Below are positions 375-37,894 of a DNA stretch of 53,636 nucleotides, one piece after another (within the stretch, counting starts at the first letter, position 1; the number at the start of each line of letters is the position of its first letter). Where the stretch lies: positions 1 through 53,636 of the forward strand of contig JAWLDI010000001.1 of NCBI GenBank assembly GCA_041686715.1, read 5' to 3'. Below the pieces are notes generated by a model that did no database searches, was not told the origin of the DNA, and saw only the letters and a program-made list of their open reading frames with translations. The position numbers and the translations under genes were made by a program. Origin of the DNA: Pelovirga sp. GTDB lineage: Bacteria > Desulfobacterota > Desulfuromonadia > Desulfuromonadales > Geopsychrobacteraceae.

Positions 375-1493
375 ATGTCCAGCAAAACAGTTCACATCTC
401 CGACACCACCCTGCGCGACGGCGAACAGACCGCCGGGGTCGTCTTCAGTCACAGCGAAAAAATCGCCATTGCCACCATGCTCGACCGCATCGGCGTCAGC
501 GAACTGGAATGCGGCATCCCGGCCATGGGCAAGGACGAACAACGCACCATCAAGAAGCTGGTCGATCTGAATCTCAATGCCCGCCTGCTCTCATGGAACC
601 GCGCCCTGATTCCCGACATCCAGGCATCTTTGAACTGCGGCATCAGGGCGGTCGACCTCTCCATTTCCGTGTCTGATATCCACATCCATCACAAACTGCG
701 CTCCAGCTGTGATCAGGTTAAAGAGCAACTGAAAACCGCCCTGGGCTTTGCCAAGCAGCATCAGCTCTATGTCTGCGTCGGTGCTGAGGACGCCGGCCGC
801 GCTGACATGGAGTTTCTGCTGGAACTGTTGGCGATTGCTGCAAACCTTGGTGCCGATCGTTTCCGCTTCTGCGACACCCTGGGACTGCTCGACCCCTTCA
901 CCACGTATGACAAGGTCAGCACCCTGGCCCGTCACAGTGCCATCGATCTGGAGGTTCATACCCATAACGACCTGGGGATGGCGACCGCCAATGCGATTGC
1001 CGGCGTCAGAGCGGGAGCGACCTATGTCAGCACCACCGTCAACGGCATCGGCGAACGCGCCGGCAATGCGGCAATGGAAGAAGTGGTGATGGCGCTGAAA
1101 CTCGCCTGCGAGATCGATCCTGCGATTACGACCACTGATCTGGCTCATCTTTCCCGTTATGTAGCAGCTGCCAGCGGCCGACCGCTGACTCCCTGGAAGG
1201 CGGTTGTTGGTGAAAAGGTATTTTCCCACGAATCAGGGCTGCATGCTGATGGTATCTTGAAACATCCCTCCACCTATGAGGGATTTGATCCGGCAGAAGT
1301 CGGGCTCAAGCGCCATATCGTTGTCGGTAAACATTCCGGTCGCAGCGGCTTGAAACAACGCCTGCAGGAACTGCAACTGGAACAACCGCACATTGACTTG
1401 AATAAATTATTACCGCGCGTCCGCTCCCTTGCCGGTCGCCGCAAACGGGCCCTACTGGATCAGGAATTGATTGAACTGTGCCGCGCCTGTTAA
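375..1493 (+). CDS. nifV: Homocitrate synthase
   Basis: DRE-TIM motifs DTTLRDGEQ, HTHNDLGMA, GIGERAGNA; 372 aa with no LeuA regulatory domain; sigma54 promoter; adjacent mod genes. Confidence 0.9.
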   Translation: MSSKTVHISDTTLRDGEQTAGVVFSHSEKIAIATMLDRIGVSELECGIPAMGKDEQRTIKKLVDLNLNARLLSWNRALIPDIQASLNCGIRAVDLSISVSDIHIHHKLRSSCDQVKEQLKTALGFAKQHQLYVCVGAEDAGRADMEFLLELLAIAANLGADRFRFCDTLGLLDPFTTYDKVSTLARHSAIDLEVHTHNDLGMATANAIAGVRAGATYVSTTVNGIGERAGNAAMEEVVMALKLACEIDPAITTTDLAHLSRYVAAASGRPLTPWKAVVGEKVFSHESGLHADGILKHPSTYEGFDPAEVGLKRHIVVGKHSGRSGLKQRLQELQLEQPHIDLNKLLPRVRSLAGRRKRALLDQELIELCRAC

Positions 1494-1500
1494 ATTGCCG

Positions 1501-2307
1501 ATGATCCTTCAACCCTTATCAGCTGCCGACTGGAACCTTTTTTTACGCCTTGCCCGAGGCGAAGGCTGGCTTGTCCCAACCAAAGAGCAACTGCTGTTTC
1601 AACATCAGTGGCGCCCTTTTTTTTTGGCTTTGCGTCATTACGGCAAAACCTGCGGCTTCATTTCTGCTGTCAGCTACCGCCATAGCGGCTGGATCGGCAA
1701 TCTGCTCATCGACCCTGAATTGCGCGGACAAGGTTACGGTAAGTATCTGCTTGAAGAGGCGTTAAAGCTTCTGTACCAACCTCCATTGCAACGAATCTGG
1801 CTCACGGCCTCGAGGCAGGGCCGGCCCCTGTATCAACGTTATGGATTCACGCAGGTTGATACGGTGACGCGCTGGAGCACAACCGGCCGCGGCAAGAATC
1901 AACCCGTTACCACCCAGGCAACGCTGGCATGTCTGGTTGCAATTGAACAGGATTGCTGGGGAGAAGATCGCCGTGATCTGATCAGCGCCCTCGCCGCAGA
2001 CAGCTTGCTGTTACAGCAAGCGAATACTCTTGCCATGGTGCAAACCGGAATTGATTTATGGCAGCTTGGCCCCTGGTCTGCCGCAAAAAGTGATCCACGC
2101 AGCGCCCGCCTGCTGCTTGACCTGGCGGTGGCCGCAACGCCTGCGAACAAGACTCTATTCGTAGATACTCTGGATTCTGCCGGCCTTGAACTGCTGCTGC
2201 GCCGGCGAGGTTTTGCCCGGCATGGGCAAAACCTGCTGATGTATCAGGGGGAAGCGCCCCGCTTGAGGGGCGTGATGGCGTTAGCCAGTCTGGGTAGCAT
2301 CGGTTGA
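1501..2307 (+). CDS. GNAT family N-acetyltransferase with YitH-like C-terminal domain
   Basis: Acetyl-CoA motif LRGQGYGK and GRPLYQRYGF; ATG 7 nt after nifV stop (ORF track starts at 1471). Confidence 0.8.
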   Translation: MILQPLSAADWNLFLRLARGEGWLVPTKEQLLFQHQWRPFFLALRHYGKTCGFISAVSYRHSGWIGNLLIDPELRGQGYGKYLLEEALKLLYQPPLQRIWLTASRQGRPLYQRYGFTQVDTVTRWSTTGRGKNQPVTTQATLACLVAIEQDCWGEDRRDLISALAADSLLLQQANTLAMVQTGIDLWQLGPWSAAKSDPRSARLLLDLAVAATPANKTLFVDTLDSAGLELLLRRRGFARHGQNLLMYQGEAPRLRGVMALASLGSIG

Positions 2308-2318
2308 CAATCATTGTC

Positions 2319-2350
2319 TTGACTAGCGCTATTTACTTTAGTATATAACG
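2319..2350 (+). promoter_or_regulatory. ModE operator overlapping a sigma70 promoter
   Basis: CGCTATTTA-N6-TATATAACG (2327-2350) fits the ModE box; TTGACT-17-TATATA overlaps it. Confidence 0.8.
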
Positions 2351-2381
2351 CTAACAGCCCCCAACGGCGAAGGAGAAATCA

Positions 2382-3158
2382 ATGAGAGTCAGCGGCAACC
2401 TGTTGCTGGGCAGCAATCAGCAGCTGAATGAAAAACGTATCGAGTTGCTGCGCCAGATCGACCAGCTTGGCTCCTTGAGTGCCGCAGCCAAAGCTGTGGG
2501 CTTAAGCTACAAAGGCGCCTGGGATGCCATTGACGCCATCAACAACCTGTCTGACAAAGAACTGGTCTGTCGCGTCAGCGGTGGACGCGGCGGCGGCGGC
2601 AGTACCCTGACGAATGAGGGGAAAAAGATCCTGCGGATGTATGATCTCTTCGCCCGTGCCCACGAGCGCTTTATGGACGACCTTTCGACTCACAGTGACA
2701 ATCCACAGGATGCCTACAACTTTTTACAGAGGATGACAATGAAAACCAGCGCACGCAACCAATTCGGCGGTGAGATCATCAGCATCCGTCACGGCTCGGT
2801 CAACGATGAAGTCACCCTGCTACTCAGCGGCAGTGATGAAATTACCGCCATTATTACCCGTGACAGCGTGACAAACATGGAGCTGTCCGTCGGCAAAAAG
2901 GCCTACGCCCTGATAAAAGCCAGTGCGGTTATCCTATCCGACGAAAGACCTCGTGGCATCAGCGCCCGCAATATTCTGTCTGGTACCATCGAGCGGATTG
3001 TGCTGGGCGGTGTCAATGCCGAAGTAATCCTCGCCCTGCCCGGTCAGACTCGTCTGGCAGCGGTGGTAACGCGCGAGTCAGTCAGCAACCTGGAACTGCG
3101 GGAAGGGACCACAGCCTGGGCATTCTTCAAGGCATCGAGCGTTATTTTAGGAGTTTAA
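2382..3158 (+). CDS. modE: Molybdate-responsive transcriptional regulator
   Basis: HTH (GSLSAAAKAVGLSYKGAW), GGRGGGGS turn, two SARN TOBE/Mop repeats. Confidence 0.93.
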   Translation: MRVSGNLLLGSNQQLNEKRIELLRQIDQLGSLSAAAKAVGLSYKGAWDAIDAINNLSDKELVCRVSGGRGGGGSTLTNEGKKILRMYDLFARAHERFMDDLSTHSDNPQDAYNFLQRMTMKTSARNQFGGEIISIRHGSVNDEVTLLLSGSDEITAIITRDSVTNMELSVGKKAYALIKASAVILSDERPRGISARNILSGTIERIVLGGVNAEVILALPGQTRLAAVVTRESVSNLELREGTTAWAFFKASSVILGV

Positions 3159-3198
3159 CTTATCGACAGGTGGCGCCAGTCCCTGTTTTTTTCCTGAT

Positions 3199-3222
3199 CG
3201 ATATATAAACGACTTTACATCG
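3199..3222 (+). promoter_or_regulatory. Second ModE operator, upstream of modA
   Basis: CGATATATA-N6-TTTACATCG, 20 bp before the modA start. Confidence 0.7.
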
Positions 3223-3242
3223 AGATTCTCAAGGAGATTACC

Positions 3243-4013
3243 ATGAAACGGGTACTACTGTTTATCATTATTCTTGTCGCTGTCAGCACCAGTCTGCATG
3301 CTCAGGATCGCCCCCTGACCATTTTCGGTGCTGCCGACCTGCGCTACGCCCTCAATGAAGTTGTCACCGCCTTTAAGCAGACTCATCCGGGCGCCAACAT
3401 CGAAACTATTTATGGTTCCAGTGGTAAAGCCTACGCTCAGATTCGCAACGATGCTCCCTATGATCTCTATTTTTCCGCCAATATCGACTACCCGGAACGC
3501 CTGTTACGAGACGGACATGGTATCGGTGAAGCCAGACTTTATGCCATCGGTCGGGTTGTCCTCTGGCAACGTAAAGGAGGAAAGCTTGACTTAAGCAAAG
3601 GAGTGGATGTGCTACGGGACCCCGCCATTCGCCGGCTTGCCATTGCCAATCCTGAACACGCCCCCTATGGGGTGGCCGGAATGGAGACGTTGGAAACCCA
3701 CGGCCTCTGGGAAAAGTTGCAATCTAAACTGGTTATGGGAGAAAACATCTCCCAGACAGCACACTTTGCCGCCACCGGAGCTGCCGATATCGGCATCATC
3801 GCTTATTCTCTGGCTCTGGCCCCGGAGATGAAAGCTCTGGGTGAATCCTTCAAGCTGATTGACCTAAAGGACCACAACCCGCTGCGGCAGGGTTATATGA
3901 TCACTAATTACGGGGCAAAACACCCCCTGTCACGAGCCTTTGCCGATTTTATCGAAAGTGAGGAAGGCAAGGGAATCCTCAAGGTGTACGGTTTTGAGGT
4001 TCCCGCACAATGA
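3243..4013 (+). CDS. modA: Molybdate ABC transporter substrate-binding protein
   Basis: Signal peptide; YGSSG, AIANPEHAPYG and GENISQ motifs. Confidence 0.93.
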   Translation: MKRVLLFIIILVAVSTSLHAQDRPLTIFGAADLRYALNEVVTAFKQTHPGANIETIYGSSGKAYAQIRNDAPYDLYFSANIDYPERLLRDGHGIGEARLYAIGRVVLWQRKGGKLDLSKGVDVLRDPAIRRLAIANPEHAPYGVAGMETLETHGLWEKLQSKLVMGENISQTAHFAATGAADIGIIAYSLALAPEMKALGESFKLIDLKDHNPLRQGYMITNYGAKHPLSRAFADFIESEEGKGILKVYGFEVPAQ

Positions 4014-4414
4014 ACAGCATTCCCGGAAAAATCGCTACCATTGACACGGATGGCAACCTCTCTCTGGTGGATATTGAGGTGACCTCAGACTTCAGGATGT
4101 CGGCGCTGATCGTCGAAACCCCGGAGCACTGCCCCTGGTTGAAAACCGGTCAGAGGATAAAAATTCTGTTCAAGGAGACAGAAGTCTCCATCGCCCGCAA
4201 CCTAAGTGGACAGATCAGTTTACGCAACCGCTTTGTGGCAACCATCGCCGGCATTCGTAGTGAAGGAATGCTGGCAGAGATTACCCTCGATAGTGCCGGA
4301 CACCAGGTGGTTTCCATCATCACCAGTCGTTCAGCGCAACGAATGGAGCTGAAAACCGGCGATCAGGTGGAATGGCTGGTCAAGGCCAACGAAGTCTCAT
4401 TGACTGGAAATTAA
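4010..4414 (+). CDS. Tandem TOBE/Mop molybdate-binding protein
   Basis: ISLRNRF and SIIT..SA..MEL..G Mop motifs; ATGA overlap with modA. Confidence 0.8.
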   Translation: MNSIPGKIATIDTDGNLSLVDIEVTSDFRMSALIVETPEHCPWLKTGQRIKILFKETEVSIARNLSGQISLRNRFVATIAGIRSEGMLAEITLDSAGHQVVSIITSRSAQRMELKTGDQVEWLVKANEVSLTGN

Positions 4415-4486
4415 AAGAATTTCCTGCTATTCAACTCGCCATAGCTCAGGGTTGGGGATCCTGTGCTCAACAGATACGGACCTTCT

Positions 4487-5167
4487 ATGAACCCAGACTT
4501 TACCCAAACCATGATCCTCACCTTTCAGGTGGCCGGCATCACTACCATCATCCTGCTGGTACTGGGAATTCCCTTGAGTTACTGGCTGGCCTATACCAGC
4601 AATCGCGCCAAGGCCGTGGTTGAAACCCTGGTGAGTATGCCCCTGGTGCTGCCACCGACGGTGCTGGGATTTTATCTGCTGGTCTTCTTCAGCCCGGTCA
4701 ATCCGGTTGGTGGCTGGCTCGATAGCTGGTTCAACCTGAGGCTGGTGTTCAGCTTTGAAGGGGTTATCGTCGGTTCGGTACTGTTCAGCCTCCCCTTCAT
4801 GATCCATCCCCTGCAAAGCGGCTTTGGCGCAATTCCTGCCAATCTGCGCGAGGCGGCAGCAACGTTGGGTATCTCCCGGGTGAAGACCCTGTTCACCATC
4901 CTGCTGCCCAACATGAAACCGGGCATCCTCGCCGGCTGCGTGTTGAGCTTCGCCCACACCGTCGGCGAATTCGGCGTGGTACTGATGGTCGGCGGCAATA
5001 TCCCCGGAGTAACCCGCATGGCTTCCATCGCCATCTATGATCGGGTCGAAGCCCTCGACTATGCCACTGCCCACCAGTACGCCTTTGTTTTATTTGCCAT
5101 TACCTTTGCCATACTGCTACTGGTCTATATGGTCAACCGGCGCTTTGCTCGTATGGAGCTGGCATGA
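4487..5167 (+). CDS. modB: Molybdate ABC transporter permease
   Basis: PLVLPPTVLGF, EAA loop, FAHTVGEFG and GNIPGVT; start 4487 preferred over 4463. Confidence 0.93.
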   Translation: MNPDFTQTMILTFQVAGITTIILLVLGIPLSYWLAYTSNRAKAVVETLVSMPLVLPPTVLGFYLLVFFSPVNPVGGWLDSWFNLRLVFSFEGVIVGSVLFSLPFMIHPLQSGFGAIPANLREAAATLGISRVKTLFTILLPNMKPGILAGCVLSFAHTVGEFGVVLMVGGNIPGVTRMASIAIYDRVEALDYATAHQYAFVLFAITFAILLLVYMVNRRFARMELA

Positions 5168-6042
5168 TTGAAGTCAATGTCAGCAAACGCCTGCATACCG
5201 CCGAAGGACCGATGGATCTGGTGTTTAACGGCATCATTGAACAGGGGGAATTCATCACCCTGTTCGGCCCCTCCGGTGCCGGCAAAACCACCCTGCTGAG
5301 GATGGTAGCGGGGCTGACCACCCCCGACGCCGGCACCATCGTCGTCAATGGCCAAACCTGGTTCGACTCGACCAGCCGTATCAATCTATCCCCGCGCCGG
5401 CGCTCCATCGGCATGGTGTTTCAGGATTATGCCCTGTTTCCCAATCTCACCGTCGCCGAGAACATTGGCCTGGCCCTGCCCAGGGAAAAACGCGGTGTCA
5501 TCGCCGGAGAGTTGCTGGAGGTCGCGGGATTACAGGAGCTGGCCGGTCGCAAACCGGACAAACTCTCCGGCGGCCAGCGCCAACGCGTGGCGCTGGCACG
5601 GGCCCTGGCCCTGAAACCCGCCATACTGCTGCTCGACGAACCCCTGTCGGCGCTGGATCTGCAGATGCGCCTCAAACTCCAGGATGAGCTCTTGCGTCTG
5701 CATCAGCGTTATCAGCCCACGACCCTGCTGGTGAGCCACGATCTGAGCGAGGTCTTCCGCCTCAGTCGCCGCGTCTTTGTGCTGGACAGAGGCGAAGTCA
5801 CCCGCAGCGGCAGCCCGACTGAAGTTTTTTCACAGTCAAACATCAGCAACAAGTTCCGCTTTAACGGTGAGGTGGTACACATCAAAGCCAGCGGCATCGT
5901 CTACATTGTCCATGTGCTGGTCGGGCAGGATGTTGTTCAGGTCATCGCCAGCAAACGGGAAATGGCGAACCTGAAGGTCGGCAAGCGGGTTCTGATTGCT
6001 TCCAAAGCGTTCAATCCCCTGATCATGCCGCTGGATGAATAA
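5164..6042 (+). CDS. modC: Molybdate ABC transporter ATPase with C-terminal TOBE
   Basis: GPSGAGKT, LSGGQ, LLLDEP; coupled to modB. Confidence 0.9.
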   Translation: MIEVNVSKRLHTAEGPMDLVFNGIIEQGEFITLFGPSGAGKTTLLRMVAGLTTPDAGTIVVNGQTWFDSTSRINLSPRRRSIGMVFQDYALFPNLTVAENIGLALPREKRGVIAGELLEVAGLQELAGRKPDKLSGGQRQRVALARALALKPAILLLDEPLSALDLQMRLKLQDELLRLHQRYQPTTLLVSHDLSEVFRLSRRVFVLDRGEVTRSGSPTEVFSQSNISNKFRFNGEVVHIKASGIVYIVHVLVGQDVVQVIASKREMANLKVGKRVLIASKAFNPLIMPLDE

Positions 6043-26580: not shown

Positions 26581-26775
26581 CACATCAACCTCCTGCTCTG
26601 GTGTCTCGTGCAGACACCCGATTACTTGATAGAAACAGATAGACTCATCATACCATTTTTTGTCATTTCATTTTTTTGTCATGACATTTTTGCGTATCAA
26701 CTGCTGTTCAAGATGATTCAACTCCGGGAAAATGCTAACATCTCAAAACAAACAACAATTCAGGAGAGTCCCTTT

Positions 26776-27216
26776 ATGCTCAGCAACCCTTTTGTCCGGC
26801 TAGGCTATTTCCTGACCTTTGCCTTTATCTGCCTGGTGTCGCTCCCCTTCTCCAGCATTAGCGCTGAGCTTCCCCAGACCACTAATGATATCCCACGGAT
26901 CAGCATTAAAGAACTGCTGGAATGGCAGGAACAAGAACCCGTAGTCATTGTTGACGCGCGCATAACCAGGGCCTGGAAACGAGCCGGCAATAAAATTCCC
27001 GGCGCAATTCGACTGGACTCGCCGGAAAAGATTGCTCGCTTCACCCTCACGACAGACCCTCAGCAAGCTGTTCTCGTCTATTGTCTCTGACCACGGGAGC
27101 GATCCAGTGCCGGTCTGGCACTGACCTTATCCAAGCAGGGCTTCAGCCGCGTTCGGGTACTCGAAGGAGGTTACCATAGCTGGATCAGTGCAGACCTGCC
27201 GCTGGATCAAAAATAA
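26776..27216 (+). CDS. Exported rhodanese-domain selenoprotein (CxU; TGA 27088-27090 read as Sec)
   Basis: VDAR, KIPGA, LVYCL-TGA-PRERSSAGLA..L..QGF..V.VLEGGY.SW: the domain continues in frame past TGA; SECIS-like hairpin; AGGAG RBS before 26776. Confidence 0.85.
27091..27123 (+). promoter_or_regulatory. Bacterial SECIS element
   Basis: CAGTGCC-GGTCT-GGCACTG perfect 7-bp stem; G-initiated loop starts 21 nt after UGA. Confidence 0.75.
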
Positions 27217-27515: not shown

Positions 27516-27552
27516 GCGGGCAAACTCATTAACACTCAATGAGTTTGCCCGC
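27516..27552. terminator. Hairpin between convergent genes
   Basis: GCGGGCAAACTCATT-N7-AATGAGTTTGCCCGC perfect 15-bp stem. Confidence 0.75.
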
Positions 27553-27560
27553 TGCGCTGC

Positions 27561-28343
27561 TCAGGTCCGCCACACCGCGATGCGCTGACTCACCGGATAC
27601 ACTGCCGGGCCGAACTGGTTGTATATGGCTACATCGGCAGCGTCGCGACCGTATCCGATCGTTACATACCCCCCCTTGTGGAACGGCTGGGTAGCATCAA
27701 AGGTATACCAGCGACCACCGACATAAGCTTCAAACCAGGCATGCAGGTCCATCGGTTCCAGCTCATACAGATACCCCACCACAAAGCGCGCCGGGATACT
27801 GATACTGCGACATAAGGCGATCCCCAGGTGTGCCAGATCTCGACAGACACCGGACTGCCGATGGTTGACCTCAACCGCGGAGATGGGCAAATCGCTGCTG
27901 CCGGGCAGGTAGCGAATGAAATTGCGCACCCAGCCCTCAATCGCCGACACCTGATCATAGCCGGGTTGAAGATTGGCCGTGATCTCGGTTGCCATCTGAC
28001 CAAAGCGATCTGACTCGCAGTACCGACTCGGAAGAAGGTATTCCAGCACGCCATTGGGAAGATTCTGAATTTCGATGAAAGGGGCCCCCACCGCCTGATC
28101 ACTGAAGTCTGCGGTCTTTACCTGCGCTAATGTATGGATGGCGAAATATCCGGGCGGCGCAATCAACCGCTGGCAGAGATTCCCATAGCCATCAGTAAAC
28201 TCGAACACGGGAACTTCAGGGGCAAGCCGATACTCTTCTTTAGCTATCCATTGCTGGGCCCCACTACGCGGCCGCAGCATCAGCACAAACGGCGTCGCTA
28301 CCGAAATTTCAAATTCAAGATCACAACTGACATGTAACCACAT
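27561..28343 (-). CDS. Transglutaminase-like protein
   Basis: [11 protein letters not shown]; triad GVCRDLAH / HAWFE / TFDAT. Confidence 0.9.
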
Positions 28344-28420
28344 GATTATTCCTGATGGCTCATCAAGCTCTGCCGGCGGACTGCTGCCACCAACCGCTTA
28401 GAGTAAAAATCAATACGCTG

Positions 28421-29371
28421 TCATTCCTCCATTACCATCCGGAAGAAGACCTCGTAAATTGCCTCGCCAACCTGGTTGATCCGGGTCTGGGTAACGTCGA
28501 GATACTCATGCAGCCCGTAATCAAAAATTTCCTCCAGCGCCGCAAACTGAAACTCTGCCAACAACCGTCCCAATGCCTGCTGCGCCTTGTTGGAATAGGA
28601 ATCAATCTGGCCACCACTGATTTCATTGAGGGACTTCATCCCTGCCGCCAGGGAATAATGAACAGCCCGCGGGAAGTTACGGTCAAGCAGCAAAAAATTG
28701 GTGATATTGCGCGGCGCAATGCGACCATACTGCTTGCGGTACATTTCAAATGCGCTGGCTGAACGCAGCAAGGCCCCCCAGAGAATATTGTCATACGGGC
28801 TGCCGACATAATCGACAGAGGGCAACAGGATAAAATACTTAACATCAAGCAGGCGGGTGGTTTTGTCGGCGCGCTCAAGCATCCGCCCGAGGCGACCAAA
28901 ATGCCAGCCTTCGCCATGATTCATGGTCGCATCGGTAATGCCGATAAAGGCGTGACTGGCATTCATCACCTCGGCAGAAAACTGGTGGGGCAGATCCATC
29001 ACGGTCTCTTCCGAAGCGGCGTTGACCATCAGGTAAAAGGTATTGAGCTGCTCCCACATTTCGGAACTGATATATTCGCGGATTGATCGAGCGTTTTCCC
29101 GCGCGGCCCGCACGCAGGAATAAATAGAATTGGTGTTACGCCGGTCAAATATCAGAAAACGGATAGCGTTGTCACGGGTTGCCTCGCCGTAAAGCTTTTT
29201 GAATAACTCGTGATCACCGGTGGTATTGATCAGAGGCTGCCACTGATCACTGGCATCCTCGGGAAGATCAAGGGTCATATTATAATTGGCGGAAATAAAA
29301 CGGGCGACATTTTCAGCCCGCTCAATATAGCGGTTCAACCAGTAGATGGAATTCGCAACCCGACTCAGCAT
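28421..29371 (-). CDS. Alpha-E domain protein (DUF403)
   Basis: [39 protein letters not shown]. Confidence 0.9.
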
Positions 29372-30873
29372 GGCGCATCCTCCTGATTCTGATTCTGATT
29401 CTCCTCCTGCAACGGAGATTCAGGTGACGGTCCCTCCGTTGAATTAATCACCCAGGTGTCTTTACTCCCTCCCCCTTGCGATGAATTGACCACCAGTGAT
29501 CCTTTCTTCAGTGCCACCCGCGTTAAACCACCGGGCATAACATAGATGTTATCATTGCCACAGAGGATATAGGGGCGCAGATCGACATGCCGTCCCTCGA
29601 AATGGTCGCCCATCAGCACCGGCACCCGCGACAGCGACAGGGTCGGCTGAGCAATATAGATGCGTGGCCTGGCGATAATCCGGCGGCGGAATTCTTCGCG
29701 CTCTTCAGCGCTGGCATGGGGGCCGATCAACATGCCATAGCCGCCGGACTCATTCACCGCCTTGACCACCAGCTTGTCGAGGTTTTCCAGAACGTATTTG
29801 CGGTCGTCTTCGCGCCAGCAGGCATAGGTCGGCACATTGTTAATGATAGGATCTTCCTGCAGGTAATATTTGATAATCTCCGGCACATAGGCATAGACCG
29901 CCTTGTCATCGGCAACCCCGGACCCGGGGGCATTGGCGAGAGCGACCCGTCCTTTACTGTAGGCTTCCATCAAGCCCGGCACGCCAAGCATGGAATCGGC
30001 ACGGAACACCTTGGGATCGATGAAATCATCGTCGATGCGCCGATAAATCACATCAACCCGTTCCAGTCCCTTGGTTGTGCGCATCATCACCTCGCCACGG
30101 TGAACAACCAGGTCCCGCCCCTCAACCAGCTGCACTCCCATCTGTTGCGCCAGGTAACTGTGCTCGAAATAAGCGGAGTTATAAATACCTGGCGTCCAGA
30201 CCACACACACCGGAGCACGCACCCCGGGCGGAGCCATGTCCTGCAGCATATCGAGCAGGCGAATCGGATAATCCGTGACCGGCTGAACACTGCAGGCATC
30301 AAAAACCAACGGGAAGGTGCGTTTCATGATCTGCCGATTTTCCAGCACGTATGAAACCCCCGAGGGACAGCGCAGATTGTCCTCGAGAACATAATACTCA
30401 CCATCGCCACCACGAACCAGATCGGTTCCGGTAACATGACACCAGACACCACAAGGAGGATCAAGGCCGATACAGGGTTTACGAAAACCTTCCGCGGAAA
30501 GCACCAGATCCGCCGGCACAACGCCATCTTTAAGAATCTTCTGGTCGTGATAAACATCGTCGATAAACAGGTTCAGGGCGTGAATCCGCTGTTTCAGACC
30601 AACCTCAAGGTGTTGCCACTCTTGCGCCTGAATAATCCGTGGGACGATATCAAAGGGGAAAATTTTTTCGGTCTGGGCATCGTCACTGTAGACGTTAAAG
30701 GTGATTCCCAGATTCAATAACGCTTTTTCTGCCGCCTGTTGCCGGCGCTGCAACTCAGAATCAGGCAGGGCGTTGATACGCTTGACAAGCAGGTCGGCGC
30801 CGCGCCGCGGTTTCCCTCCGGCATCAAACAACTCATCATAAAAACCTTCGGTATCATATCCGGTAAAATTCAT
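29365..30873 (-). CDS. Circularly permuted ATP-grasp (type 2) protein
   Basis: [67 protein letters not shown]. Confidence 0.92.
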
Positions 30874-30924
30874 TGAATCCTCCTTTATTTAAGGGGTCAA
30901 AAAACACATTCATTGTTACTGATA

Positions 30925-31851
30925 TCAGGACAATGGACCCTGGCTCTGTTGTTGTTGCAGCAACAGCGGTTGATCAGGCTGCCTGGCGACATCAACAGAA
31001 ACCACGACCTGATGCTTGCCTCCTCCCAGAGCGATCCCCTTTAAGGGCGACACATCGGAAAAATCACGTCCCCAGGCGACAGTAATATGCTGCTCGCGCG
31101 GTTGGTGATTATTGGTCGGATCAAAATCAAACCAGCCATGGCCTGGAAGATAAACAGCAAACCAGGCATGGGAAGCATCAGCACCGATCAGCCGCTCCTG
31201 CCCCGGCGCCGGCAGGTTTTCGATATAACCACTGACATAGCGAGCCGCCAGCCCCAATGAGCGCAGACAGCCGATGGCAACATGAGCGAAATCCTGACAC
31301 ACCCCCCGCCTTTTTTCGAGGACCTCCGCCAATGGTGTCGCAATGGTCGTTGATGTCGGGTCATAGGAAAAGTCGTGATAAATCCGCTGCATCAGATCCA
31401 TTGCCGCCGCCAGCAAAGGACGTTCTGGGGTCATGGAAGCCCGGGCATAGTCAACCAGCGGTGGCAATAACGGGATCAGTGGTGAAGCGTAGCGGTACGG
31501 CATCACTGAAACAATGTCAGGGGTGCGCTGGGTACGCAACATCTCAACAACCGCCTCCCAGGGGTGCGATTGTTCCGGTTTTTGCAGGTATATCCGCGGG
31601 AAAACCTCAACATCACTGACAGCCGTCACCGTTAAGGTATCATGAGGCTGCTGGATGGCAAAATGGGTCCTAAGATTACCAAAAAAGTCGCTGCGCTCAT
31701 GGATATCCGTGGCTTCGGGACTGATCTGCAGCACGCTGTTGCGAGAGCGTTGATGCTCAGTCTCGCGCACCAGTAGACAGGTTTCATTGCGGCACATATT
31801 AACCGCTTCGCTGTAGTGGTAACGCGTCACATGTCGAATACGATAGTTCAT
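30925..31851 (-). CDS. Transglutaminase-like protein with Bact_transglu_N domain
   Basis: IRHVTRYHYS, DFFGN, GVCQDFAH / ASHAW / FDPTN, GRDFSDVSPLKG. Confidence 0.92.
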   Translation of the reverse strand: MNYRIRHVTRYHYSEAVNMCRNETCLLVRETEHQRSRNSVLQISPEATDIHERSDFFGNLRTHFAIQQPHDTLTVTAVSDVEVFPRIYLQKPEQSHPWEAVVEMLRTQRTPDIVSVMPYRYASPLIPLLPPLVDYARASMTPERPLLAAAMDLMQRIYHDFSYDPTSTTIATPLAEVLEKRRGVCQDFAHVAIGCLRSLGLAARYVSGYIENLPAPGQERLIGADASHAWFAVYLPGHGWFDFDPTNNHQPREQHITVAWGRDFSDVSPLKGIALGGGKHQVVVSVDVARQPDQPLLLQQQQSQGPLS

Positions 31852-34469
31852 AATACCATTTCCCGCAGCGGCAAACCGAACTGTTGCAACGCCTGTGTCG
31901 GCCTGAAATAGAACTGGGTCAGACAGTTCGAAAGCTGCTGCAGGCGCTTTTTCTGATCTGTCAGCAGCGCCTCCAGCAGGGGGTAGCTGCCACTCTCGGA
32001 GATTTGCCGGGTCAAACCTTTATGATCTGTCGCCTGTAATTGCTCCAGCGCAGAAGAGATAATTTCCTCATCTTGACCCACTGTGGGCACATTGGCTTCG
32101 TGGGGCAGTTCACTGATATGTCTTTTCATCTGGCGCATCTGGCAGGCCAGGGACCTGGGATAATTTTCATCCAGCAACAAGAGTTCGAGGATGGGTGATA
32201 ACTGCATGAATGAACGATAACGACGGCGAAAAACGACCAGGCTGTTGCAGCTTGCCAGCACCGTTTCCATAATACGCGCTTCGGTCGCACTATCGTAACA
32301 GGGCACCAGTGTCTCATTGAGCAGATCAATCAAATTGAGAGCCCGCTCGAGTCGACGCCCGATATTCAGCAGCAACCAGGCTGTTTCACGCGCCATATTT
32401 TCATAAGCCAACCCGCTGAAAGCCGACAGTTGCAACACCAGTTGGTGAACATTTTCATACATCCGGCCGCTGCCGATCAATGCCCTGCCGACTCGCGGGT
32501 TCCATGACTGCATCTGGTCCACCAACCGCCAGGCATCTTCGGGAAGCAGATCACGTATTTCCACTGCCGAGCGGCCCAGACTGCGCAAGGAGGATCGCAA
32601 ACTCCCCGATCGATCGATATCGCGAATCAACGACAGCAGCTCTGCCCGTGGATCATCCAATTTCTGCTGTGCGTCTTTACCGACAAAGCCCGGATAGGTC
32701 AGGGTAACATGGGTCAACGCCTGCAGCAGATGATTCAGACTGATGCGATCATCCGGATCGCCAAACTCTTTAACTTCACGCAGCTTCACCAGTATAGAAC
32801 GCAGCAGCCGCGCCGTCTGTTCGGTACGCTCAGCATAGCGCCCGGCCCAGAACAGGTTTTCCGCGGCACGGCTCGGTAATGAAACAAAATAGGGTGAAAG
32901 AGGCACATCCGATGTGGATCGCAACCACAGGTTTACCTGTTGATGAGGTTCCTGAGTCAACACCCAGGTATCCTTGATGCTACCTGCACGTTGTCCGGAA
33001 ACAAGCAGGTTGTCACCAGCCGCGGCCACCCGGCTCAGCCCTCCCGGCATCAACTGGTAGCTTTCATTGTGCGCAGTAACATACAGACTGACCAAGCTCT
33101 GGCGGGTGGCCAGCTGCTTCTGCTCATAAGCTGGAAAGGCAACATAATCAACCTGCTCCTGACCAACAAACAGGCGCGGATTGGCACTGATCAGGGCAGT
33201 CCAGCGCTGTCGCTGCGCATCCGTCATCCGTCCCGGAGTTGACTGGGGCATATCAGGTAAGGGCTGAATCGGTTTGATAATCAGACGATCCAGATTTTCC
33301 AGCACATACTTGCACTCCCGCGGCTGACCGCACCACCAGGTCGCAATTGACGGGACCTTCAGGTCAGTGCCCAGAAAATAGCGGCATATTCCAGGCAGAA
33401 ACGCCATCAGTGCCGGATTTGCCAGGATACTGCTACCGATCGGATTGACCAGAGCCAGGTTGCCCCGACGCACTGCCTGCAACAGACCGGGGACACCGCC
33501 GCCGCTATGACTGCGCAGCTCCAGAGGGTCGCAGGCATGATCCGCCAGCCGGGAAAAAATCACATCGACCTGATGCAACCCATCCACCGTTTTCAACCAG
33601 ACACAGCTGTCGCGAACGACAAGATCGCCCCCCTGTACCAACGGGTAACCAAGATAAGAGGCAAGATAGGCATGCTCAAAGTAATCAGGATGCGTCGGCC
33701 CCGCGGTCAGCACCACAATCCGTGGATATTCCTGATGTTGTCGGGCCAATTGGCCGAAGCGCTGGCGCACAGCACGGAAGAACTGTGCCAGTCGGTGTAC
33801 CCTGAATCCCTCGAATAACTGCGGAAAGCTGCGTGTCATGATCACCCTGGTTTCCAGGGCATAACCGGCACCAAACGGCGGGCTGACATGATCATCGACG
33901 ACCCAGAAATTACCGTCAGTCCCCTTGGCTATTGTTGTAGAGAAGAGGTTAAGCTGCTGTGGTTGAGGAAAATTACCATCGGCACAAGGGTAGAAAAAAC
34001 CACTGTGTGGAAAGACCAGCTCCGGCGGCAACAACCGTTTTTCAATCAGTTTACGCGGACCATAGATATCTTGAAGAATCAGGTTAAACAACTCGGCACG
34101 CTGAATCATGGCCTGGTCCAGCTGGCCCCACTCAGCGACACTGAAAATCAGCGGCAGCGGGTCAAACTGCCAGGCGCGATTACTGTTGCTCTGATCAAAG
34201 ACATTGTGGATGGCACCGTTTTCCCGCAACAGCCGTTGCGCCTCGCGAAAACGTGTGTGGACACGCGGCCCCAGTTTCTCAAGATTCTGCTGCAATCGTT
34301 GCCAGTGCTCGGGAAAATCCCCGGCTCCCGCGGCTTCGACAATCGCCCGGTAGATATCGGTGGCGGCGGCAGTTGAAATCGATGTTTCAGGTTCACTTAT
34401 CAAAGTTAAACTCTCATCACATATCTGTTGTTTAGCAGGCTCATCAGCAACTATGGCGGCGCAGGTCAA
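31848..34469 (-). CDS. Circularly permuted ATP-grasp fused to an alpha-E domain
   Basis: WQFDPLP, YFEHAYLA..LG, PGGLSRV, KDTW, then LPSRAAENLFWAGRYAER and GRRLERA; true start may be TTG 34403. Confidence 0.88.
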   Translation of the reverse strand: MTCAAIVADEPAKQQICDESLTLISEPETSISTAAATDIYRAIVEAAGAGDFPEHWQRLQQNLEKLGPRVHTRFREAQRLLRENGAIHNVFDQSNSNRAWQFDPLPLIFSVAEWGQLDQAMIQRAELFNLILQDIYGPRKLIEKRLLPPELVFPHSGFFYPCADGNFPQPQQLNLFSTTIAKGTDGNFWVVDDHVSPPFGAGYALETRVIMTRSFPQLFEGFRVHRLAQFFRAVRQRFGQLARQHQEYPRIVVLTAGPTHPDYFEHAYLASYLGYPLVQGGDLVVRDSCVWLKTVDGLHQVDVIFSRLADHACDPLELRSHSGGGVPGLLQAVRRGNLALVNPIGSSILANPALMAFLPGICRYFLGTDLKVPSIATWWCGQPRECKYVLENLDRLIIKPIQPLPDMPQSTPGRMTDAQRQRWTALISANPRLFVGQEQVDYVAFPAYEQKQLATRQSLVSLYVTAHNESYQLMPGGLSRVAAAGDNLLVSGQRAGSIKDTWVLTQEPHQQVNLWLRSTSDVPLSPYFVSLPSRAAENLFWAGRYAERTEQTARLLRSILVKLREVKEFGDPDDRISLNHLLQALTHVTLTYPGFVGKDAQQKLDDPRAELLSLIRDIDRSGSLRSSLRSLGRSAVEIRDLLPEDAWRLVDQMQSWNPRVGRALIGSGRMYENVHQLVLQLSAFSGLAYENMARETAWLLLNIGRRLERALNLIDLLNETLVPCYDSATEARIMETVLASCNSLVVFRRRYRSFMQLSPILELLLLDENYPRSLACQMRQMKRHISELPHEANVPTVGQDEEIISSALEQLQATDHKGLTRQISESGSYPLLEALLTDQKKRLQQLSNCLTQFYFRPTQALQQFGLPLREMVL

Positions 34470-37400
34470 GGGTCAAGGGAAACTCATCATCAATGTCCAG
34501 CGGTGGGGGTGCCATGGGTCCGGGAACCGAGCCGTTAGGGAAGAAACGCCCGAAGCTGCCGAAATCGGCGTGGGGAGCCAGGCGTCCAGGGGTATGCTCG
34601 GTCACCGTAAACATGGAGCGCCGGCGGGATTCAGCGATCAACGGGTTCAATGGAAAAACATCATAGCTGCGCCCGCCGGGGTGGGACACATGATAGGAAC
34701 AACCACCAATGGAACAGCCATTCCAGGTGTCGATGACATCGAACACCAGCGGCGCGTGGGGCTTGATCGTCGGATGCAGCGCCGAAGGGGGCTGCCAGGC
34801 GCGATAGCGGACGCCGGCAACAAACTCATCGCGCCGCCCGGTGCTGCGCAATGGCAGTCGCATGCCGTTACAGACAATGACATAGCGCTCTTCTGTCAGC
34901 CCGGTAACATACAACTGTAACCTCTCAACCGAGGAATCAACATAGCGTGAAGTCCCCTGGCTGGTAACTTCTTCACCAAGTACATGCCAGGGCTCGATGG
35001 CAAAACGCAGTTCCATCTCGATATTGTCGATCTGCACTGTCCCGTAACGGGGAAATCTGAATTCAAAAAAGGGATCAAACCAGTCAAACTGGAACGGATA
35101 GCCGGCCCGCTTCAGATCGGCCATTACCTCTTTGATGTCCTGGGCAACAAACCAGGGGAGCAGGAAGCGATCGTGCAATGAGGTCCCCCAGCGCACCAGC
35201 TTATGGGCATACGGCTCGCGCCAGAACCAGGCCACCAGGGTGCGCAACAGAAGATTCTGGACCAGGCTCATGCGCGCGTGGGGGGGCATCTCAAAGGCGC
35301 GCAATTCGAGAATACCGAGGCGACCAGCCGGCCCATCGGGCGAATAGAGCTTATCAATACAGAATTCGGCGCGATGGGTATTACCGGTCACATCAATCAG
35401 CAGATTACGCAGCAACCGATCCACCAGCCAGGGTGCAGCAACCTCCCCTTCCGGCATCTGGGCAAAAGCAATCTCCAGCTCATAAAGGGAGTCATCCCTG
35501 GCCTCATCGATACGCGGCGCCTGGCTGGTCGGGCCCATGAACATGCCGGAGAACAGATAGGAGAGCCCGGGGTGATGCTGCCAGTAGGTGATCAGGCTGC
35601 GCAGCAGATCAGGCCGGCGCAACATCGGGCTGTCCGCCGGGGTGGCTCCACCCAGGGTAATATGGTTGCCGCCACCGGTGCCGGTATGACGACCATCGAG
35701 CATGAATTTTTCCGTTCCCAGTCGACACTGGCGTGCCTCTTCGTAAAGCCGCGTGGTGTTTTCAACAATTTTCTGCCAGCTATTGGCTGGATGAATGTTG
35801 ACCTCGATGACGCCGGGGTCGGGGGTCACACTCAAGCGTTCAATGCGCCAGTCGCGTGGCGGTTCATAGCCTTCGATCACCACCGGCAACTCCAGTTCTG
35901 CTGCCGTCGCTTCGATGACGGCGATCAGGTCAAGATACTGCTCAAGAGCCGGCAGGGGTGGCATGAACAGATACAGACGACCGTCGCGTACTTCAAAGCA
36001 GATGGCGGTATGGGGAACCTCTTCGAGCCTGAGCTGTTCTTCGGTTTCCACAACCTGTCCGGGAGCCTCCGGCGGCCAGGGCGACTGTGAAAAATCTCCC
36101 AGTGGCGGCAATGGCGCAAACTGGCTCTGCTCCATGAACGGCTCCCGCTTTTCCGGAGCAACCCAGGGCAGGGAATCCAGCGGCAGACGCATACCCATGG
36201 CGGAATCGCCGGGAATCAGATACATCTGCTCGCGGCGAAAGTCCCAGTCAGCACTGATCCAGCGGTTTTCATGGGTTTCCCAGCGCAGCGGCAGCGCGTA
36301 CCCAACAGGCTGATCGAGTCCATGGGTCAACACCTTTGCCAAAGTACGGCGCTCCATGCTGTCTTTTAAATCGGCCACTTCCGGGTCGAGATTAACCGGC
36401 GTGGTGCCCTCTTTCCAGAGCCAGTAGAGAGGATCTTCATAACCGGGAACAAGATAATGGTCCTTGACGCCGATACGCTCGGCAACTTGTAAGGCAAAGC
36501 GCTCGGCGGCATCCTGCGCGGCGGTGCCCGGCTCACGGATATCGGCAAGCAAATCATGATTGTGCCAGATCGGCTGCTTGTCTTTGCGCCAGAAGCAGTT
36601 ATACGCCCAGCGCGGCAAGGGCTCACCGGGATACCATTTGCCCTGGCCATAATGCAACAGCCCACCGCTGGTAAAAGCGTCACGCAGGCGCAGTACCAGA
36701 TCATGGGCGAGGTTGCGCTTGTGCTCACCATCAGCGTGGGTATTCCACTGGTCGCTCTCCATATCATCGATGGAGACAAAAGTCGGCTCGCCGCCCATGG
36801 TCAAACGGACATCACCAGCCACCAGATCCTCTTCTACCTTTTGCCCCAGGGCGTTGATCAGTTGCCACTGGTCATCACTGTAAGGCTTGGTTACCCGCGG
36901 ATCCTCATGCAGACGATGGACGGTATTGCTGTATTCAAAGGTTACTTTACAGGGGCCGGTGGCACCCGTCAGTGGCGCCGCACTCGCCGGGTGGGGGGTG
37001 CAGGCCAGGGGAATATGCCCCTCTCCGGCCAGCAACCCGGAGGTGGGATCAAGGCCAACCCAGCCGGCACCGGGGATATAGACTTCGGCCCAGGCATGCA
37101 GATCAGTAAAATCGGCTTCCGGTCCGGAAGGACCATCCAGCGATTTTTCATCAGAACTCAGCTGCACCAGGTAGCCACTGACAAAGCGCGCTGCCAGACC
37201 CAGGTGCCGTAAAATCTGTACCAGCAACCAGGCGGTATCACGGCAGGATCCGAGCGCCAGATGGAGGGTTGTCTCACAGGTCTGGACCCCCGGCTCCATA
37301 CGCACCGAATAAGCAATATCCTGGTTCAGACGACGGTTAACCTCGACCAGAAAATCGACCGTAATCATTGGTTCGCAATCAATTTTTTTCAGCCAGCGGG

Positions 37401-37782
37401 ACAAGCGCGGTCCGGCATGGATTTTCTGCAGATAAGGAATCAGCTCGGTCCGCTCCTGGCGGGTATACTCAAAAGGAAACTTCTCGGCATAGTCCTCGAT
37501 AAAAAAATCGAAGGGGTTATAGGCGATCATATCAGCAACCACCTCTACCGCAATTGACAGCTCCTTGCTCGGTTCAGGAAATACCAGACGCGCGAGATAG
37601 TTGCCGAAAGCATCCTGTTGCCAGTTAATAAAGTGCTCTTCCGGCAGAATCTTGAGAGAATATGCCTGGATCGGCGTGCGGCAGTGAGGAGCCGGTCGCA
37701 AGCGCAGCACGTGAGGATAAATCTGGGTCGGTTTGTCAAAGAGATAACGGGTTACATGGTGACAGGCAATACGAATCGGCAT
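34444..37782 (-). CDS. Transglutaminase fused to DUF2126 putative COOH-NH2 (amido)ligase
   Basis: GSCRD / DLHAWAE / GLDPTSG triad; GGEPTFV, TPDPGVIEVN, GTGGGNH, NTHRAEFCIDK, ELRAFEMPPH. Confidence 0.92.
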   Translation of the reverse strand: MPIRIACHHVTRYLFDKPTQIYPHVLRLRPAPHCRTPIQAYSLKILPEEHFINWQQDAFGNYLARLVFPEPSKELSIAVEVVADMIAYNPFDFFIEDYAEKFPFEYTRQERTELIPYLQKIHAGPRLSRWLKKIDCEPMITVDFLVEVNRRLNQDIAYSVRMEPGVQTCETTLHLALGSCRDTAWLLVQILRHLGLAARFVSGYLVQLSSDEKSLDGPSGPEADFTDLHAWAEVYIPGAGWVGLDPTSGLLAGEGHIPLACTPHPASAAPLTGATGPCKVTFEYSNTVHRLHEDPRVTKPYSDDQWQLINALGQKVEEDLVAGDVRLTMGGEPTFVSIDDMESDQWNTHADGEHKRNLAHDLVLRLRDAFTSGGLLHYGQGKWYPGEPLPRWAYNCFWRKDKQPIWHNHDLLADIREPGTAAQDAAERFALQVAERIGVKDHYLVPGYEDPLYWLWKEGTTPVNLDPEVADLKDSMERRTLAKVLTHGLDQPVGYALPLRWETHENRWISADWDFRREQMYLIPGDSAMGMRLPLDSLPWVAPEKREPFMEQSQFAPLPPLGDFSQSPWPPEAPGQVVETEEQLRLEEVPHTAICFEVRDGRLYLFMPPLPALEQYLDLIAVIEATAAELELPVVIEGYEPPRDWRIERLSVTPDPGVIEVNIHPANSWQKIVENTTRLYEEARQCRLGTEKFMLDGRHTGTGGGNHITLGGATPADSPMLRRPDLLRSLITYWQHHPGLSYLFSGMFMGPTSQAPRIDEARDDSLYELEIAFAQMPEGEVAAPWLVDRLLRNLLIDVTGNTHRAEFCIDKLYSPDGPAGRLGILELRAFEMPPHARMSLVQNLLLRTLVAWFWREPYAHKLVRWGTSLHDRFLLPWFVAQDIKEVMADLKRAGYPFQFDWFDPFFEFRFPRYGTVQIDNIEMELRFAIEPWHVLGEEVTSQGTSRYVDSSVERLQLYVTGLTEERYVIVCNGMRLPLRSTGRRDEFVAGVRYRAWQPPSALHPTIKPHAPLVFDVIDTWNGCSIGGCSYHVSHPGGRSYDVFPLNPLIAESRRRSMFTVTEHTPGRLAPHADFGSFGRFFPNGSVPGPMAPPPLDIDDEFPLTLDLRRHSC

Positions 37783-37894
37783 AAATATGTCCCTGTATCA
37801 GCAGGCCGCCAACGGACCTGCAAACTCAACAAAAGAAAAAAGCAAAAACGTGAGCTATATTAGTTGAACTGCGGGACAAAAGCGATTGAAAACC

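What the first reader, a model, noticed from the sequence alone, without database searches (positions are those of the whole stretch)
27561..37782. Complete six-gene transglutaminase / CP-ATP-grasp / alpha-E / DUF2126 peptide-ligation operon
Seen: six co-oriented, overlapping or closely spaced genes, with three transglutaminase domains (all Cys-His-Asp triads intact), two circularly permuted ATP-grasps, two alpha-E domains and a glutamine-synthetase-like DUF2126 ligase. No proteasome-like (Anbu) peptidase lies in the window. Established: these families were linked by comparative genomics as a predicted peptide synthesis/tagging system; I know of no defined product or substrate. Inference: ligases add amino acids to Glu of alpha-E ER motifs or build an isopeptide polymer, and the transglutaminases transfer or remove it, possibly as nitrogen storage or reversible protein tagging in a diazotroph. 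This is the best candidate for an uncharacterised system here.
Basis: partly seen in the sequence, partly recalled or inferred. Interest (0 to 1): 0.8.

Follow-up and report, generated by a model that had tools for sequence, protein, structure and literature searches.

The report
Amide-ligase operon with one dead ligase
The six genes are real and intact, and they form an ordinary copy of a widespread, long-predicted bacterial system that likely builds and removes glutamyl-type amide bonds; one of its two ATP-grasp domains has lost the residues predicted to bind Mg-ATP and likely binds rather than catalyses, and the product is still unidentified.

Summary
Observation confirmed: six co-oriented genes, three transglutaminase-like domains with intact Cys-His-Asp, two circularly permuted (CP) ATP-grasps, two alpha-E domains and one DUF2126. 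No Anbu was found in the 95%-complete genome; nifH is present.

Corrections. (1) Only the stand-alone ATP-grasp looks active. The fused one lacks the E-x-N motif, glycine loop and a fourth acid: 0 of 26 fused domains from many phyla keep E-x-N, yet most keep putative gamma-glutamyl-binding residues. Genomes with the fused form nearly always carry an intact copy (38 of 39; 39 of 40). (2) The conserved unit is five genes; gene 6 is accessory. (3) A predicted alpha-E model puts the ER glutamates mid-helix among conserved arginines, more like an anion-binding partner than a tag acceptor. (4) No sigma-54 site here and no class-wide nifH link, although a sister variant with M14 peptidases sits in nif clusters behind sigma-54-like sites.

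Best reading: a gamma-glutamyl peptide build-and-release cycle (0.45); protein tagging is the main rival. The system was predicted in 2008-09. This scan found it, and the dead ligase, before on other genomes. New member of a known kind.

The parts
34444..37782 (-). g1, 1112 aa: transglutaminase-like domain (C180-H229-D245) fused to DUF2126, a predicted glutamine-synthetase-fold carboxylate-amine ligase (Rv2566 family)
   Evidence: Pfam; motifs; family assignment PMC2588565
31848..34403 (-). g2, 851 aa (start TTG 34403): degenerate CP-ATP-grasp (pseudo-ligase) fused to an alpha-E domain with both ER motifs (E525-R526, E686-R687)
30925..31851 (-). g3, 308 aa transglutaminase-like thiol enzyme (C185-H228-D244), overlapping the g2 stop by 4 nt
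29365..30873 (-). g4, 502 aa stand-alone CP-ATP-grasp with intact motifs (D151, E164-x-N166, K371-x3-E375-SGGYG, D431-x-R433, NSSQGGG loop); close homologue of PDB 3n6x
28421..29371 (-). g5, 316 aa alpha-E protein; predicted tandem of two four-helix-bundle-like repeats; ER motifs E17-R18 and E166-R167
27561..28343 (-). g6, 260 aa accessory transglutaminase-like protein (C167-H201-D216), not part of the conserved five-gene core
27516..27552 (-). 17-pair hairpin directly after g6, likely terminator
   Evidence: the scan found 8 sites against 12.4 expected, so only its position and stem length stand out
29365..29421 (-). Gln-rich C-terminal tail of g4
30925..30975 (-). Gln-rich C-terminal tail of g3

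Best explanation
The locus likely runs an ATP-driven build-and-release cycle for a gamma-glutamyl peptide: DUF2126 of g1 is predicted to make a gamma-glutamyl amide, the intact ATP-grasp g4 likely extends it as glutathione synthetase does, the arginine-rich alpha-E proteins likely hold the anionic product, g2, which has lost the predicted Mg-ATP residues, likely binds that product without catalysis, and the three Cys-His-Asp enzymes would cut or transfer the bond. Shown here: gene content, intact triads, intact motifs in g4, their loss in g2 and its whole subfamily, strict co-occurrence of ATP-grasp with alpha-E, near-strict dependence of the fused form on an intact copy and on DUF2126, and interchangeable amide hydrolases beside the core (Anbu, paired M14 peptidases, a zinc peptidase, extra TG). 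Inferred: the substrate, the order of steps, the role of alpha-E, and any role in nitrogen banking or recycling.
For: g4 keeps, in the right order and spacing, matches to the Mg ligands, G-loop and A-loop of permuted glutathione synthetases (roles from PMC2845819; K-x3-E spacing identical) and matches to their gamma-glutamyl-binding Ser, Asn and Arg (S171, N232, R279); these are invariant in 27 stand-alone homologues. In 26 fused domains, 0 keep E164 or N166 (24 Arg, 2 His at 166) and none has the glycine loop or D431, while E237 (26), R279 (25), R433 (25), D151 (22), S171 (22) and N232 (19) persist. CP-ATP-grasp and alpha-E occur in the same 69 of 201 class genomes. The fused form is in 39, of which 38 have an intact copy and 38 have DUF2126; in 40 genomes from other groups, 39 and 38. 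g1 carries most GS-fold motifs listed in PMC2588565: E332, D655, E660, H707, R804, E826-x-R828. That paper itself favours glutathione-like peptide synthesis over protein conjugation for this family. The downstream hydrolase varies: Anbu (L063), AstE/AspA M14 peptidases (13 of 13 sister-order regions), Peptidase_Mx (L152; this genome on contig C18). Homologous operons are induced by nitrogen limitation or NtrC/sigma-54 (PMC5491218, PMC3235984).
Against: No substrate is shown by any tool or paper seen. A homologous ATP-grasp released phosphate from ATP without stimulation by Glu or Gln (PMC6376114 section 8). The residue mapping to glutathione synthetase is by motif order only; a profile of g4 homologues did not reach those structures. 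30 of the 201 class genomes carry the intact ATP-grasp and alpha-E without the fused form, 29 of them without DUF2126, so the two-ligase relay is not obligatory. g1 reads E-x-T and H-x-T where the superfamily has Ex[EH] and [HD]x[NH], so it may not be a ligase. Among 117 close fused homologues 41% still have E164. Gln-rich tails on g3, g4 and many alpha-E proteins fit a protein substrate better. This copy lacks a sigma-54 site.
Confidence: 0.45

Rival explanations
1. Reversible protein tagging: g4 or DUF2126 ligates amino acids onto a protein carboxylate, on alpha-E or on deamidated Gln tails, and the TG enzymes remove or transfer the tag.
For: DUF2126 shares its predicted fold with the Pup ligase (PMC2588565). 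Gln-rich tails occur on g3, g4 and 19 of 28 alpha-E homologues that I picked with a bias to long ones. A proteasome-like Anbu is a frequent partner. E17 and E166 are at least 90% conserved.
Against: The ER glutamates lie inside helices 2-35 and 154-181 of a pLDDT 94 model, not on a flexible end. Co-expression of the Anbu operon gave no altered Anbu (PMC5666114). Gln tails are absent from this g5 and from the four nif-cluster-type ligases aligned. No small Pup-like ORF is reported for this family.
Confidence: 0.27
2. DUF2126 is a Dop-like de-ligase or deamidase rather than a ligase, so g1-g2-g3 is the breakdown and sensing arm (pseudo-ligase as product receptor) and g4-g5 is the only synthesis arm.
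For: Invariant or near-invariant Thr replaces two expected metal or phosphate ligands in DUF2126 (T334, T709). DUF2126 is fused to a thiol hydrolase and travels with the dead ligase (38 of 39). Genomes without it carry other hydrolases instead. The Dop analogy is recalled, not tested.
Against: The other GS-fold catalytic motifs are intact. At least one relative has both DUF2126 and Anbu (L063), so they do not simply replace each other.
Confidence: 0.18
3. The locus mainly serves protein turnover: the TG-like proteins are proteases that free amino acids or ammonia under nitrogen stress, and the ligase-like parts are regulators.
For: Mycobacterial Rv2569c, recalled as a g3-type protein (orthology not tested here), was reported to degrade casein and other proteins (PMC11081392). 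Turnover was proposed for the Anbu operon.
Against: That activity was insensitive to E-64 and NEM, which is odd for a Cys triad. It does not explain the invariant g4 active site or the strict ATP-grasp/alpha-E pairing.
Confidence: 0.1

Closest known systems
CP-ATP-grasp / alpha-E / transglutaminase system (COG2308-COG2307-COG1305; Anbu operon; Valas and Bourne 2008, Iyer et al. 2009)
   Same: g4, g5 and TG domains, conserved adjacency, intact motifs; no product known.
   Different: No Anbu found here; adds the g1-g2-g3 module and an accessory TG; no sigma-54 site in front of this copy.
M. tuberculosis Rv2566 family (TG + GS-fold ligase; Iyer, Burroughs, Aravind 2008) and its neighbouring fused ATP-grasp/alpha-E gene
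   Same: g1 has the same domain architecture; g2 is the fused type (Rv2567 as its counterpart is recalled).
   Different: Here both modules lie in one operon. The fused ATP-grasp is shown to be degenerate across phyla and further decayed in this lineage (D151, S171, N232 and R433 also lost).
Eukaryote-type glutathione synthetase and glutathionylspermidine synthetase/amidase
   Same: Permuted ATP-grasp with E-x-N, G-loop and A-loop; pairing with a papain-fold amidase (the Gsp pairing is recalled). PDB 3n6x, the solved g4 homologue, is labelled putative Gsp synthase.
   Different: Works-like only: no sequence-level match to those enzymes; they have no alpha-E partner; the substrate here is untested.
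Pup ligase PafA / GCS2 carboxylate-amine ligases
   Same: Most GS-fold motifs are present in DUF2126 in the expected order.
   Different: E-x-T and H-x-T replace Ex[EH] and [HD]x[NH]; about 830 aa with large inserts; fused TG; no Pup.

Membership tests
CP-ATP-grasp/alpha-E/TG system | CP-ATP-grasp, alpha-E and TG genes adjacent and co-oriented | tested here: met
CP-ATP-grasp/alpha-E/TG system | Alpha-E with two conserved ER motifs | tested here: met
   g5 E17-R18, E166-R167; g2 E525-R526, E686-R687
CP-ATP-grasp/alpha-E/TG system | TG domains with Cys-His-Asp triad | tested here: met
CP-ATP-grasp/alpha-E/TG system | Co-transcription and induction by nitrogen limitation | tested here: inconclusive
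   RNA contigs are sparse and also cover flanks; no sigma-54 site
Anbu operon subtype | Anbu gene in the operon | tested here: not met
   None in the window; only HslV found in the 94.76% complete genome
Active permuted ATP-grasp ligase (g4) | Metal-binding acids, E-x-N, G-loop, A-loop | tested here: met
   roles from PMC2845819, mapped by motif order; the Asn role is recalled
Active permuted ATP-grasp ligase (g2) | Metal-binding acids, E-x-N, G-loop, A-loop | tested here: not met
   g2 has T, D, H, P and L at the places of D151, E164, N166, E375 and D431; no glycine loop
Rv2566 family (TG + DUF2126) | N-terminal TG fused to full-length DUF2126 | tested here: met
GS/GCS-fold carboxylate-amine ligases | Strand-1 Ex[EH] and strand-4 [HD]x[NH] motifs | tested here: inconclusive
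   First residues kept (E332, H707), third positions Thr; placement is by motif order
GS/GCS-fold carboxylate-amine ligases | GS fold by profile or structure | tested here: inconclusive
   Shallow-profile hhalign gave probability 0.3; single-sequence model failed, pLDDT 34; no PDB match
GS/GCS-fold carboxylate-amine ligases | ATP-dependent amide formation | not testable with these tools
   needs biochemistry

The most novel reading that the evidence does not exclude
This family is an unrecognised nitrogen-banking pathway for a gamma-glutamyl peptide or polymer, parallel to cyanophycin: an ATP-grasp/alpha-E pair polymerises, a conserved pseudo-ligase reads the product and hands it to transglutaminase and DUF2126, and the sister variant, wired into nifHDK clusters under sigma-54 with two M14 peptidases, stores or releases freshly fixed nitrogen.
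Probability: 0.17. Interest if true: 0.8.

Novelty: new member of a known kind. Interest (0 to 1): 0.4.

Why it matters
The system is widespread (6765 alpha-E clusters at 50% identity), is among the strongest nitrogen-starvation responses in some bacteria, and still has no known chemistry. This copy is ordinary, but the analysis narrows the experiment: assay g4 with g5, treat g2 as a binder and built-in negative control, test DUF2126 in both directions, and use the nif-embedded, sigma-54-type variant as the clearest physiological handle.

Tried and rejected
Single-sequence AlphaFold of g1 failed (pLDDT 34) and was not used. hhalign of DUF2126 against GCS2-family profiles found nothing, with Neff about 2. 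PDB sequence searches for g1 and g5 found no match. Fold searches with the alpha-E model gave no clear match: Foldseek had no hit at E<=0.001 in PDB or BFVD; VIA best Z 11.1 to generic four-helix bundles; the ESM Atlas gave no usable hit. A g4-g5 co-folding job had not finished when the session ended: no verdict. RNA runs: five small-share holders; short contigs scatter over the operon, its flanks and an 18-kb control alike, so neither expression nor co-transcription is shown. Sigma-54 scan of the window: 83 matches against 72 expected, none in the spacer before g1; sigma-70 scan none there. Rfam found nothing convincing in the window. A mixed alpha-E alignment aligned fused segments poorly and was dropped. 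A genome-wide link to diazotrophy was rejected at class level (33 of 39 against 128 of 162); within the order it is 33 of 39 against 35 of 62, but kin are not independent. Upstream ppgK and DCC1-like genes flank g1 only in same-genus regions and were not counted as part of the system. Rv2411c and Rv2567 did not make GABA-trehalose. The neighbourhood table for the 80 GTDB loci could not be computed; genome searches were used in its place.
Full report
Observation. The six ORFs lie on the minus strand at 27561-37782. Pfam assigns g1 TG + DUF2126, g2 CP-ATP-grasp + alpha-E, g3 TG, g4 CP-ATP-grasp, g5 alpha-E and g6 TG; no NCBIfam model names any of them. The three Cys-His-Asp triads are intact. 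g2 most likely starts at 34403 (851 aa). A 17-pair hairpin follows g6. GC content is like the rest of the window. Close homologues are labelled Desulfuromonadales. The genome has nifH and HslVU; Anbu was not found by the Pfam family, which detects it only weakly, nor by a relative's Anbu (94.76% complete).

Conservation. Of 17 relatives' regions, 12 have g1-g5 in this order and 1 in a permuted order; 2 are cut by contig ends, 1 has g1-g3 only and 1 has g4-g5 with a shorter g1. g6 follows g5 directly in 5 same-genus regions, lies nearby in 2 and is missing from 6 regions that hold all five core genes, so it is accessory. In 201 class genomes DUF2126 is in 39, and alpha-E and CP-ATP-grasp are in the same 69. 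The fused form is in 39; 38 of these have DUF2126 and 38 have a stand-alone ATP-grasp (exceptions G023, G038). I took 40 of the 80 GTDB loci returned for the fused protein, chosen for taxonomic spread: 39 of their genomes have a stand-alone copy and 38 have DUF2126. Kin are not independent, but the pattern holds across many phyla.

The second ATP-grasp is degenerate. In 34 stand-alone proteins D151, E164 and N166 are invariant, and E375, the SGGYG loop, D431-x-R433 and the NSSQGGG loop nearly so. In 117 close fused homologues these positions drift: D151 to N in 77%, N166 to R or H in 77%, E375 to P or R in 92%, D431 to I, V or L in 90%; E164 persists in 41%. In 26 fused domains (this g2, 21 GTDB loci, 4 plasmid loci), none keeps E164 or N166 and none has the glycine loop or D431, whereas E237 (26), R279 (25), R433 (25), D151 (22), S171 (22) and N232 (19) persist; the three stand-alone controls keep all. 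Passages of PMC2845819 give the Mg-binding acids, G-loop, A-loop and gamma-glutamyl-binding Ser, Asn and Arg of permuted glutathione synthetases. I mapped them to g4 by order and spacing only; the role of the Asn in E-x-N is recalled, and a g4 profile reached only PDB 3n6x. The inference is that the fused subfamily lost Mg-ATP chemistry but kept much of the peptide pocket, and that this lineage has decayed further. An earlier scan note reached the pseudo-enzyme reading on another genome; I had tested it before seeing that note.

DUF2126. PMC2588565 (parts 1 and 2 of 3 read) places Rv2566-type proteins in the carboxylate-amine ligase superfamily and suggests glutathione-like peptide synthesis. 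g1 has E332, D655, E660, H707, R804 and E826-x-R828-x-x-E831, conserved in 31 homologues, but Thr at the third position of the strand-1 and strand-4 motifs. My own fold tests were inconclusive, so ligase against Dop-like hydrolase stays open.

Alpha-E. In 121 diverse sequences R18, R24 and E166 are invariant, and R4, R14, E17, R91, R95, R98, R167, R173, D176 and R235 are at least 90% conserved. The model (pLDDT 94, pTM 0.92) is all helical, with two bundle-like repeats and both ER motifs inside long helices. I could not inspect solvent exposure. An arginine-rich surface suits an anion-binding partner; this is inference. Gln-rich tails on g3, g4, order-level g4 homologues and 19 of 28 alpha-E homologues (three or more Gln in the last 25 residues; a pick biased to long sequences) keep protein tagging alive.

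Interchangeable hydrolases and nitrogen. 29 genomes of the sister families have the ATP-grasp and alpha-E without DUF2126. All 13 such regions fetched, most chosen for nearness to nifH, read ATP-grasp, alpha-E, TG, then AstE/AspA M14 peptidases. At least 12 of the 29 lie within 17 kb of a nifH (57 nifH matches were not listed), and in L049 the unit directly follows nifHDK. Six of 12 upstream regions show a clear sigma-54 -24/-12 box by eye, without a shuffle control. One relative has g1-g5 plus Anbu (L063). A Peptidase_Mx partner is in 7 of 201 genomes, all DUF2126-positive, including contig C18 here. Papers link homologous operons to nitrogen: passages of PMC5491218 (NtrC and sigma-54 dependence of a four-gene cluster) and PMC3235984. 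For this copy there is no sigma-54 site, no class-wide nifH association (33 of 39 against 128 of 162) and no usable RNA evidence.

What is known. The system was described by Valas and Bourne 2008 (passages) and Iyer et al. 2009, which is not held and which I saw only as cited in PMC5666114 and PMC6376114 (passages; section 8 of the latter). Those studies found ATP hydrolysis by the ATP-grasp but no substrate and no stable Anbu complexes. A 2026 preprint (10.64898/2026.04.15.718621; abstract and passages) excluded GABA-trehalose synthesis for Rv2411c and Rv2567. PMC11081392 (passages) reports protease activity for Rv2569c. Searches found no paper naming the product, the dead fused ATP-grasp or the nif-embedded M14 variant; the 2009 paper and supplementary files, none of which I opened, may contain either. 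The scan has reported this system on at least eight other genomes.

Verdict. A real, intact, ordinary member of a known and unsolved system. Most likely a gamma-glutamyl peptide build-and-release cycle with one active ATP-grasp, one pseudo-ligase and a GS-fold enzyme of uncertain direction (0.45); protein tagging 0.27; DUF2126 as de-ligase 0.18; turnover 0.10. The g4-g5 interaction remains untested. Interest 0.4.

Noticed in passing
L049 5460-15211, L050-L059, L062, L068: Sister-order variant: ATP-grasp, alpha-E, TG and AstE/AspA M14 peptidases, often inside nif clusters (directly after nifHDK in L049 and L050) with sigma-54-like boxes; no DUF2126. Not found in the paper searches or in earlier scan notes.
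   Followed up: partly
L165 11266-12330 (own genome, contig C18): Zinc-ribbon + Peptidase_Mx gene, 52% identical to the partner found inside the Caballeronia cluster (L152); a detached accessory member, about 5 kb from a RimK + AstE/AspA pair (L165 3836-6111).
   Followed up: partly
window 29365-29421 and 30925-30975: Gln-rich C-terminal tails on g4 and g3, recurring on many alpha-E homologues; possible acyl donors or docking motifs.
   Followed up: partly
window 37783-37894: The ppgK-g1 spacer is conserved in four same-genus relatives (shared block ending AACTAATATA), a possible internal promoter or regulator site.
   Followed up: no
L064 7662-10067, L039 10989-13319: Shorter DUF2126 proteins (776-801 aa, 43-44% identity to g1) next to ATP-grasp and alpha-E without the fused gene; in L039 a TG-like ORF is separate.
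   Followed up: no
L025 11859-12773: A glutaminase gene sits between alpha-E and the g6 homologue, on the opposite strand, in one relative.
   Followed up: no
L151 8872-12173: In Sinorhizobium meliloti the fused gene and a TG form a two-gene unit just upstream of glycogen genes.
   Followed up: no
G023 C39 3286-5742: The only class genome with the fused form but no stand-alone ligase or DUF2126 found.
   Followed up: no
window 375-6042: nifV homocitrate synthase followed by modE and modABC: the end of a nitrogen-fixation support cluster, 21 kb from the operon.
   Followed up: no
window 26608-27090: Rhodanese-related gene resembling a (seleno)protein family (NF041203, below cut-off); the ORF ends at a TGA at 27088-27090, and read-through was not checked.
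   Followed up: no
L049 3066-3141: c-di-GMP-I-GGC riboswitch-like match, below the gathering score.
   Followed up: no
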